64,000 nt of DNA, from NCBI RefSeq assembly GCF_058153355.1, contig NZ_CM177019.1. One strand, written 5' to 3'. Position 1 is the stretch's first letter. Each line of letters begins with the position of its first letter. The translations under genes and the position numbers were made by a program. Shown piece by piece: positions 13,748 to 14,743 of this stretch. A model generated the notes under the pieces. That model did no database searches, had not been told where the DNA came from, and was given only the letters and a program-made list of their open reading frames with translations.

Positions 13748-14743
13748 ATGCACAAATTTACTAAAGCCCTGGTAGCCATTGGTCTGGCAGCCGTTATGTC
13801 ACAATCCGCTATGGCGGAGAACCTGAAGCTCGGTTTCCTGGTGAAGCAACCGGAAGAGCCGTGGTTCCAGACCGAATGGAAGTTTGCCGATAAAGCCGGG
13901 AAGGATTTAGGGTTTGAAGTTATTAAGATTGCCGTGCCGGATGGCGAAAAAACATTGAACGCTATCGACAGCCTGGCTGCCAGTGGCGCGAAAGGTTTCG
14001 TTATTTGTACTCCGGACCCGAAACTCGGCTCTGCCATCGTGGCGAAAGCGCGTGGCTACGATATGAAAGTCATTGCCGTGGATGACCAGTTTGTTAACGC
14101 CAAAGGCAAGCCAATGGATACCGTTCCGCTGGTGATGATGGCAGCGACCAAAATTGGCGAACGTCAGGGCCAGGAACTGTATAAAGAGATGCAGAAACGT
14201 GGCTGGGATGTCAAAGAAAGCGCGGTGATGGCGATTACCTCCAACGAACTGGATACGGCTCGTCGCCGTACTACGGGTTCTATGGATGCGCTGAAAGCTG
14301 CAGGATTCCCGGAAAAACAAATTTATCAGGTACCTACCAAATCTAACGACATCCCCGGGGCATTTGACGCTGCCAACTCAATGCTGGTTCAACATCCGGA
14401 AGTTAAACATTGGCTGATCGTCGGTATGAACGACAGCACCGTGCTGGGCGGCGTACGCGCGACGGAAGGTCAGGGCTTTAAAGCGGCCGATATTATCGGT
14501 ATCGGTATCGGTATTAACGGTGTGGATGCAGTAAGCGAACTGTCTAAAGCACAGGCAACCGGCTTCTACGGTTCCCTGCTGCCAAGCCCGGACGTACATG
14601 GCTATAAATCCAGTGAAATGCTTTACAACTGGGTAGCAAAAGACGTTGAACCGCCAAAATTTACCGAAGTTACCGACGTGGTACTGATCACGCGTGACAA
14701 CTTTAAAGAAGAACTGGAGAAAAAAGGTTTAGGCGGTAAGTAA
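13748..14743 (+). CDS. araF: L-arabinose ABC transporter periplasmic binding protein
   Basis: 331 aa with signal peptide; see finding on GIGIGI hexamer repeat. Confidence 0.9.
   Translation: MHKFTKALVAIGLAAVMSQSAMAENLKLGFLVKQPEEPWFQTEWKFADKAGKDLGFEVIKIAVPDGEKTLNAIDSLAASGAKGFVICTPDPKLGSAIVAKARGYDMKVIAVDDQFVNAKGKPMDTVPLVMMAATKIGERQGQELYKEMQKRGWDVKESAVMAITSNELDTARRRTTGSMDALKAAGFPEKQIYQVPTKSNDIPGAFDAANSMLVQHPEVKHWLIVGMNDSTVLGGVRATEGQGFKAADIIGIGIGINGVDAVSELSKAQATGFYGSLLPSPDVHGYKSSEMLYNWVAKDVEPPKFTEVTDVVLITRDNFKEELEKKGLGGK

What the first reader, a model, noticed from the sequence alone, without database searches (positions are those of the whole stretch)
14498..14515. Tandem hexanucleotide repeat in araF (GGTATC x3) adding a Gly-Ile unit
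The sequence ggtatcggtatcggtatt encodes IIGIGIGINGV. My recollection of the K-12 protein is IIGIGINGV with total length 329 aa versus 331 here, which would make this an in-frame 6-bp slippage expansion. The reference sequence is from memory, so confidence is low.
Basis: partly seen in the sequence, partly recalled or inferred. Interest (0 to 1): 0.2.

Follow-up and report, generated by a model that had tools for sequence, protein, structure and literature searches.

The report
In-frame 6-bp slippage duplication in araF
The arabinose-binding protein gene araF in this E. coli window carries a real but ordinary 6-base tandem duplication that adds Gly-Ile; the same short repeat has gained or lost a unit several times in other E. 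coli, and here the operon's araG gene also carries a premature stop.

Summary
Window 14498-14515 reads GGTATC GGTATC GGTATT, within a perfect TATCGG x3.5 tract at 14494-14514. It lies in frame in a 331-aa AraF. Solved E. coli ABP structures and at least 5,181 complete E. coli genomes have two units (329 aa).

The three-unit state is derived. All 120 AraF cluster representatives from Enterobacterales have two units, as does a Burkholderia AraF structure. No GTDB species representative encodes an AraF with three.

The allele is real: identical DNA and protein occur in independent public assemblies (EGO8352123.1, HFG3507499.1, SRR31441161).

The tract is a weak recurrent slippage site. Three-unit alleles also exist on K-12-type backgrounds with different codons (WP_141416358.1). 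One differs from a complete genome only by the 6-bp duplication over 10 kb. One-unit (327-aa) alleles exist on at least four backgrounds.

The insert sits in the beta-strand just before invariant Asn/Asp residues, which by my recollection contact the sugar. Its effect on binding is untested.

In this lineage araG carries an amber codon (Q89*, 15077-15079), so the AraFGH transporter is probably dead anyway.

Verdict: an ordinary short-repeat indel polymorphism of low interest.

The parts
14494..14514 (+). Perfect hexanucleotide tandem tract TATCGG x3.5 (21 nt). The 6-bp duplication cannot be placed more precisely than somewhere inside this tract.
   Evidence: TRF reports period 6, 3.5 copies, 100% matches. 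The alignment to E. coli 2017-02-2CC shows a 6-nt gap here. It is the only such tract in the window.
14498..14515 (+). Codons 251-256 of araF: GGT ATC GGT ATC GGT ATT = Gly-Ile x3, where reference alleles have x2.
13748..14743 (+). araF, the periplasmic L-arabinose-binding protein, 331 aa. Apart from the GI insert it differs from K-12-type AraF by A9V (signal peptide) and A165S.
   Evidence: The ORF is. It matches 1ABE at E=5.8e-203. It is annotated araF in 5,416 E. coli genomes.
15077..15079 (+). Amber codon TAG in araG (Q89*, CAG->TAG). It is the only amino-acid difference from the reference AraG used.
   Evidence: Codon-by-codon comparison with L002. The ORF is split into 14768..15079 and 15092..16327 in the same frame.
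14813..16327 (+). araG, the ABC ATPase of the arabinose transporter, interrupted at codon 89. The remaining 411-aa ORF covers only profile positions 94-503 of 504.
16342..17328 (+). araH, the permease. It is intact, with no amino-acid difference from the reference.

Best explanation
This is a derived, lineage-specific, in-frame 6-bp tandem duplication in araF. The most likely cause is slipped-strand mispairing during replication on a pre-existing 15-nt perfect repeat (TATCGGTATCGGTAT) that encodes the conserved Gly-Ile-Gly-Ile strand of the arabinose-binding protein. The duplication lengthens that strand by one Gly-Ile, immediately before the invariant Asn-Gly-Val-Asp segment. The same tract has slipped repeatedly in E. 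coli, both up to three units and down to one, so it is a weak mutational hotspot rather than a designed switch. In this lineage the operon's ATPase gene araG also carries an amber stop at codon 89. High-affinity arabinose uptake by AraFGH is therefore probably lost regardless of what the insert does to AraF. The insert is best seen as a neutral or mildly damaging lesion tolerated in an operon that is dispensable or decaying. Shown here: the duplication, its derived state, its recurrence and the araG stop. Inferred: the slippage mechanism, the effect on AraF, and relaxed selection.
For: - **Repeat and frame.** These are established.
- **Gap against references.** There is a 2-aa gap against the ABP structures and a 6-nt gap against an E. 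coli genome.
- **Absent from complete genomes.** Short queries around the repeat matched 5,113 and 5,181 of 5,426 genomes, and every one of those matches kept the 6-nt gap; a 47-nt word-11 query (2,366 genomes matched) found no full-length gapless match.
- **Two units is ancestral.** All 120 AraF cluster representatives at 84-99% identity have G[IV]GI followed by NGVD. Burkholderia AraF (4KZK) has the same spacing. A degenerate pattern for IIGIGIGINGVD found nothing in 100,044 species genomes. The 7 hits to the looser GIGIGINGV pattern are not AraF: tblastn gave E>=0.79.
- **Not an artefact.** The exact protein is in NCBI and Logan on 5 contigs. The SRR31441161 contig is identical to the window over 10,996 bp.
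- **Recurrence.** K-12-type AraF with three units and with one unit are both in public data. They sit on several DNA backgrounds with different repeat codons: GGTATC-type and GGCATT-type.
- **Recent, independent events.** L012 differs from the complete genome Z1323CEC0018 only by the 6-bp duplication over 10 kb. L011 differs from FDAARGOS_497 by the duplication plus one SNP.
- **Broken operon.** araG carries Q89*. Among 49 genes compared, araF is the only one with an indel, and araG and flhE are the only ones with internal stops.
Against: - Slippage itself is inferred from the repeat structure, not observed.
- The functional effect on AraF is unknown. The two AlphaFold models, variant and wild-type control, were equally poor (pLDDT 69.9 and 71.3), with low confidence around the site in both.
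- Other carriers of 3-unit or 1-unit alleles have intact araG and araH. The link to operon decay is therefore specific to this lineage and may be coincidence.
- The order of the araG stop and the araF duplication cannot be resolved. No relative carrying only one of the two was found.
- The role of Asn232 and Asp235 in sugar binding rests on my recollection of Quiocho & Vyas 1984. No paper in the library confirmed it.
Confidence: 0.85

Rival explanations
1. Sequencing or assembly artefact: the extra hexamer is not present in the organism.
For: Short tandem repeats can be miscalled. None of the complete genomes carries the allele.
Against: The exact 331-aa protein and identical flanking DNA occur in independent public assemblies: two NCBI accessions and Logan runs, 5 contigs in all. 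A clean +6 bp in a 21-nt tract is not a typical error of any platform. Analogous 3-unit alleles exist in unrelated strains.
Confidence: 0.02
2. Three units is the ancestral state of this divergent lineage, and other E. coli lost a unit.
For: The window is at least 1.1% divergent from every complete E. coli genome over 36 kb, so its history is poorly sampled.
Against: Every AraF representative across Enterobacterales, and a Burkholderia structure, have two units. No species representative has three.
Confidence: 0.01
3. The three-unit tract was imported by recombination from another three-unit allele, rather than arising de novo in this lineage.
For: E. coli recombines frequently, and other three-unit alleles exist.
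Against: The window's repeat and its flanks (ATT ATC GGTATC GGTATC GGTATT ... GTG GAT GCA GTA) differ from all other carriers found. Those carriers differ from the window by 99-117 SNPs over 4 kb. The other carriers are demonstrably de novo on their own haplotypes.
Confidence: 0.04
4. The tract is a functional tuning or contingency site: changing the number of Gly-Ile units adaptively alters AraF affinity, specificity or stability.
For: Both gains and losses recur on several backgrounds, always in frame, mostly with intact araG and araH. The tract adjoins invariant binding-loop residues. One 1-unit haplotype was seen on 14 contigs.
Against: With only 2-3 copies, slippage must be rare. None of at least 5,181 complete genomes has a variant length. 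The length is invariant across the order. The two 3-unit carriers compared with complete genomes (L011, L012) are essentially tip mutations. This pattern fits rare mutation with purifying selection or drift.
Confidence: 0.05

Closest known systems
E. coli L-arabinose-binding protein AraF / ABP (PDB 1ABE, 5ABP, 6ABP etc.; class I periplasmic binding protein of the AraFGH ABC importer)
   Same: The mature part is identical to 1ABE apart from one substitution (Ala to Ser) and the insert. The match is E=5.8e-203 over residues 24-331. The gene order ftnB-araF-araG-araH-otsBA is the same as in E. coli genomes.
   Different: It is two residues longer (Gly-Ile) in the strand before Asn232 of the mature protein. 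Its partner ATPase gene araG is interrupted by an amber codon.
Slipped-strand mispairing at short tandem repeats, e.g. the lacI CTGG x3 hotspot of Farabaugh et al. 1978 (cited from my own knowledge)
   Same: There is gain or loss of exactly one repeat unit in a tract of two to three perfect copies. It recurs independently in different strains.
   Different: The unit is 6 bp, so the reading frame is kept and a codon pair is added or removed rather than the gene being knocked out. The rate was not measured.
Simple-sequence contingency loci (phase variation in Haemophilus, Neisseria, Campylobacter)
   Same: Copy number of an intragenic tandem repeat varies by slippage.
   Different: Those loci have many copies and units that are not a multiple of 3, giving frequent on/off switching. 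Here there are 2-3 copies, the change is in frame, and variant lengths are absent from at least 5,181 complete genomes.
Other public araF tract-length alleles: 331-aa WP_141416358.1/THE73768.1 and the 327-aa ELU7385458.1 group
   Same: The same tract and the same +/- one Gly-Ile change.
   Different: They lie on different haplotypes with different repeat codons and have intact araG. The window allele also carries A9V and A165S, and sits in a lineage with no close complete genome.

Membership tests
AraF / L-arabinose-binding protein (class I periplasmic binding protein) | Full-length sequence similarity to experimentally solved E. coli ABP | tested here: met
   phmmer against PDB: 1ABE at E=5.8e-203, covering query 24-331 and chain 1-306.
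AraF / L-arabinose-binding protein (class I periplasmic binding protein) | Peripla_BP_1 / Peripla_BP_4 domain | tested here: met
   Precomputed Pfam hits PF00532 and PF13407 on the exact protein. NCBIfam returned no AraF model at E<=1e-10, so naming rests on PDB and RefSeq annotation.
AraF / L-arabinose-binding protein (class I periplasmic binding protein) | Genomic context araF-araG-araH | tested here: met
   AraG (NF008442) and AraH (NF008441) equivalog hits lie downstream. The region is syntenic with annotated E. coli genomes.
AraF / L-arabinose-binding protein (class I periplasmic binding protein) | Canonical spacing G-[IV]-G-I-N-G-V-D around the binding-loop Asn and Asp | tested here: not met
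   The window has GIGIGI-NGVD. All 120 representatives and 4KZK have two units. The Asn and Asp themselves are present and invariant.
AraF / L-arabinose-binding protein (class I periplasmic binding protein) | Binds L-arabinose and delivers it to AraGH | not testable with these tools
   This needs biochemistry. The AlphaFold models are uninformative. AraG is truncated here.
Slippage-prone short tandem repeat (indel hotspot) | Perfect tandem repeat present in the parental allele | tested here: met
   Two-unit alleles carry TATCGGTATCGGTAT or GGCATTGGCATT.
Slippage-prone short tandem repeat (indel hotspot) | Changes are whole repeat units and recur independently | tested here: met
   Alleles with +6 or -6 bp occur on several haplotypes with distinct codons. 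Two 3-unit carriers differ from complete genomes by the indel alone or by the indel plus one SNP.
Slippage-prone short tandem repeat (indel hotspot) | Mutation rate at the tract higher than at non-repeat sequence | not testable with these tools
   This needs a fluctuation assay, or a full population survey with a phylogeny.
Contingency (phase-variable) locus | Long tract with frequent length variation among close relatives, switching expression on and off | tested here: not met
   There are only 2-3 copies and the change is in frame. No variant length was found in at least 5,181 complete genomes.

The most novel reading that the evidence does not exclude
The Gly-Ile tract of araF might be a natural tuning site. 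On this reading, recurrent one-unit gains and losses reposition the Asn-Gly-Val-Asp binding loop and change sugar affinity or specificity of the arabinose-binding protein, and some lineages retain the variants because they are useful rather than merely tolerated.
Probability: 0.05. Interest if true: 0.35.

Novelty: new member of a known kind. Interest (0 to 1): 0.12.

Why it matters
It matters little. The finding documents a rare in-frame length allele of a textbook protein and shows that a two-copy hexanucleotide tract in araF has slipped up or down repeatedly in natural E. coli. This is a tidy small example of short-repeat indel mutation under purifying selection. It could serve as a natural test of how a class I binding protein tolerates a two-residue change in the core strand next to the binding loop. 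In this strain the practical consequence is probably nil, because araG is already truncated. High-affinity arabinose uptake is likely lost, while the low-affinity AraE route lies outside the window and was not examined.

Tried and rejected
- **AlphaFold2 models.** I modelled the 331-aa variant and a 329-aa control from a 30-sequence alignment. Both were mediocre (pLDDT 69.9 and 71.3), with low confidence around the site in both. The apparent two-residue strand extension (E249-255 against E249-253) is not reliable evidence.
- **Literature.** Four searches for the ABP sugar-contact residues (Asn232, Asp235, Arg151 and others) found no relevant paper in the library, and the one candidate paper opened did not cover ABP. 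That point rests on my memory. One search on araF, in-frame repeats and slippage found nothing specific.
- **NCBIfam.** It has no model hitting AraF at E<=1e-10.
- **Ordering the two lesions.** I looked for the presumed two-unit ancestor of the window allele (A9V + A165S, 329 aa) and for 4-unit alleles. Neither is in the 15-billion-protein collection. Looking up the 411-aa AraG remnant found only the same lineage, plus an unrelated lineage with a different araG lesion.
- **Loose pattern hits.** The GIGIGINGV pattern hit 7 species genomes (Paenibacillus, Desulfobacterales and others). All were unrelated to AraF and were rejected.
- **Metagenome scan.** Not run, because recurrence was already established.

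Full report
**Observation.** Window 14498-14515 reads GGTATCGGTATCGGTATT. These bases are codons 251-256 of a 331-aa ORF at 13748..14743 on the + strand, whose product contains IIGIGIGINGV. Tandem Repeats Finder reports a perfect period-6 tract, TATCGG x3.5, at 14494-14514. It is the only perfect hexamer tract of 15 nt or more in the 64-kb window. Shuffled windows give 0.185 tracts of >=15 nt on average and none of >=21 nt in 200 trials. The third unit is GGTATT rather than GGTATC.

**Identity of the gene.** The protein matches the solved E. coli L-arabinose-binding protein (1ABE, 5ABP, 6ABP and others) at E=5.8e-203 over the whole mature chain. The only differences are one substitution and a two-residue gap: the window has an extra Gly-Ile after mature Ile229. 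The DNA matches araF in 5,416 of 5,426 complete RefSeq E. coli genomes. The matches listed span 990 bp, against 996 bp here. The surrounding order (ftnB, araF, araG, araH, otsB, otsA, uspC) is that of E. coli.

**Is it an expansion relative to references?** Yes.
- A 102-nt query centred on the repeat matched 5,113 complete genomes. None exceeded 92.2% identity, and every listed alignment carried the 6-nt gap.
- A 47-nt query searched with short words gave no full-length gapless match.
- A query built on the alternative codon version of a three-unit tract (GGCATT x3) also found only gapped matches, in 5,181 genomes.
- A pairwise alignment with strain 2017-02-2CC shows the clean 6-nt gap inside the repeat.
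- The K-12-type 329-aa protein that I reconstructed is in the public collection on at least 1000 contigs.

**Polarity.** Two units is the ancestral state.
- All 120 AraF cluster representatives at 84-99% identity have G[IV]-G-I followed by N-G-V-D. They include Klebsiella, Pantoea, Erwinia, Brenneria, Dickeya, Rahnella, Serratia, Yersinia, Sodalis and Budvicia. Only the query has three units.
- In a 30-sequence alignment, the flanking G, G-I-N-G-V-D columns are invariant.
- The Burkholderia AraF structure 4KZK, a more distant homologue, has the same spacing.
- A degenerate DNA pattern encoding IIGIGIGINGVD found nothing in 100,044 species-representative genomes.
- The looser GIGIGINGV pattern hit seven loci. 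None is related to AraF: tblastn gave E>=0.79.

**Is it real?** The exact 331-aa protein is in NCBI as EGO8352123.1 and HFG3507499.1, both labelled E. coli, and in Logan assemblies, on five contigs in all. One of these, from SRR31441161, is identical to the window over 10,996 bp. An assembly artefact is therefore very unlikely.

**Recurrence.** I built variants of AraF and looked them up by exact sequence. Two are present in public data:
- K-12-type AraF with three units (331 aa; WP_141416358.1, THE73768.1).
- K-12-type AraF with one unit (327 aa; the ELU7385458.1 group).

Four-unit versions are absent, and so is the two-unit version of the window's own background.

The carriers lie on several haplotypes and use different codons in the repeat:

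| Carrier | Repeat sequence |
|---|---|
| window | ATT ATC GGTATC GGTATC GGTATT |
| L011 | ATC ATC GGTATC GGTATC GGTATT |
| L012 | GGCATT x3 |
| L013 | GGCATC GGCATT GGCATT |
| L014, L016 (one unit) | GGCATT background |
| L015, L017, L018, L019 (one unit) | GGTATT background |

Pairwise distances between these carriers reach 117 SNPs over 4 kb.

Two of the three-unit carriers are essentially identical to complete genomes that have two units. L012 differs from strain Z1323CEC0018 only by the 6-bp duplication over 10,001 bp. L011 differs from FDAARGOS_497 by the duplication plus one SNP.

There have therefore been at least three, probably four, independent expansions and at least four contractions, and two of the expansions (L011, L012) are demonstrably very recent. 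No complete genome carries a one-unit allele either. The pattern fits a weak slippage hotspot whose products are rare and mostly short-lived. It does not fit a contingency locus.

**Mechanism.** The parental alleles already carry a perfect tandem repeat (TATCGGTATCGGTAT or GGCATTGGCATT). The changes are exactly one unit in either direction. That is the signature of slipped-strand mispairing. This step is inferred from the sequence, not observed.

**Likely effect on the protein.**
- The insert lies in the strand that ends at Asn257-Gly-Val-Asp260 of the precursor, which is Asn232 and Asp235 of the mature protein.
- By my recollection of Quiocho and Vyas (Nature 1984), Asn232 bonds the sugar directly and Asp235 through water. 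I could not confirm this in the paper library. The two residues are invariant in the alignment.
- Because the inserted pair repeats the strand's own Gly-Ile pattern, the extra residues could be absorbed in two ways. The strand could slide, with the surplus pushed into the distal KAAD turn, which might be tolerated. Alternatively the strand could extend toward the cleft and displace the binding loop, which would likely be harmful.
- AlphaFold2 did not discriminate between these. Both the variant and a wild-type control built from the same shallow alignment were mediocre, with low confidence around the site.
- The strict conservation of length across the order, and the rarity of variants, argue that length changes are at least mildly deleterious.

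**Context in this window.**
- araG, immediately downstream, has CAG->TAG at codon 89 (15077-15079). This is the only amino-acid difference from a reference AraG.
- The remaining 411-aa ORF covers only positions 94-503 of the 504-position AraG model, so the N-terminal 93 positions, which include the GENGAGKS P-loop seen in the ORF translation, are lost. araH is intact.
- I compared 49 genes with strain 2017-02-2CC. araF is the only gene with an indel. Only araG and flhE have internal stops.
- The AraFGH transporter is therefore probably non-functional here whatever the insert does. The two lesions in one operon are consistent with relaxed selection after the first.
- The order of the two lesions cannot be established, because no relative with only one of them was found.
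- Other carriers of tract-length variants have intact araG and araH, so the association is not general.

**Lineage.** No complete E. coli genome is more than 98.9% identical to the window over either an 11-kb or a 25-kb stretch, although synteny is complete. The source is an E. coli lineage without a close finished genome.

**Comparison with known things.**
- The gene is a member of the AraF/ABP family, with one atypical feature: the strand length.
- The mutation belongs to the well-known class of unit-length indels at short tandem repeats, of which the lacI CTGG hotspot is the classic example (from my own knowledge). It differs in being in frame.
- It is not a phase-variation locus.
- The allele itself is already deposited in public databases, though I found no paper on it in one targeted search of the paper library.

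**Verdict.** The feature is real, derived and mechanistically ordinary. The added findings, recurrent gain and loss at the tract and a truncated araG in the same operon, refine the picture without raising its importance much. Interest is 0.12.

Noticed in passing
window 15077-15079 (araG 14813-16327, +): araG has an amber nonsense codon (Q89*, CAG->TAG). It is the only amino-acid difference from the reference AraG. The ORF is split into an 88-codon N-terminal part (counted from the reference start) and a 411-aa remainder in the same frame, so the high-affinity arabinose transporter is probably inactive.
   Followed up: yes
window 36431-36433 (flhE 36134-36526, +): flhE carries a premature stop at codon 100 of 130 (GAA->TAA relative to strain 2017-02-2CC). 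The rest of the flagellar and chemotaxis cluster (flhDC, motAB, cheAW, tar, tap, cheRBYZ, flhBA) is intact.
   Followed up: partly
window ~47640-64000: A lambdoid prophage is inserted at yecE/yecD. The first 73 nt of yecE are missing and yecD is absent from the window. The region encodes an integrase, a CII-like regulator or repressor, Ant/Rha-like regulators, an O-like replication initiator, a DnaC-like loader and a DnaB-like helicase. The best complete-genome matches cover only 61-69% of it.
   Followed up: partly
window 47644-48432 and 48389-48952 (-): The prophage integrase is split into two overlapping ORFs, matching integrase profile positions 247-466 and 120-246. This suggests a frameshifted, possibly inactive integrase.
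   Followed up: no
window 59288-59406, inside the ORF 58743-59819 (+): Two adjacent tandem-repeat arrays (23 bp x2.7 and 12 bp x3.7) lie inside the O-like replication initiator gene. They look like origin iterons of the lambda type.
   Followed up: no
L023 ~3965-3968 (ENA ERZ27252949) and L024 (SRR12326803): An unrelated E. coli lineage (97 SNPs from the window over 9.2 kb, with a two-unit araF) has a different araG lesion. It is a 4-bp tandem duplication (CGCG) that shifts the frame near codon 82. araG has thus been inactivated more than once, again by slippage.
   Followed up: partly
L014-L019 (araF 6001-6984 in L014-L018; 587-1570 in L019): One-unit (327-aa) araF alleles lacking a Gly-Ile occur on at least four distinct haplotypes, and on more contigs (24 or more) than the three-unit alleles. 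All have intact araG and araH.
   Followed up: partly
window 8748-44999: No complete RefSeq E. coli genome out of 5,426 is more than 98.9% identical to this region, despite perfect synteny. The source lineage has no close finished genome.
   Followed up: partly
protein cluster 1 of the 90% clustering: The public 90%-identity cluster holding AraF also holds full-length AraG proteins and has a 504-aa representative. This may result from chaining through fused or mis-called products, but I did not check. It is a database quirk to bear in mind when reading cluster sizes.
   Followed up: no
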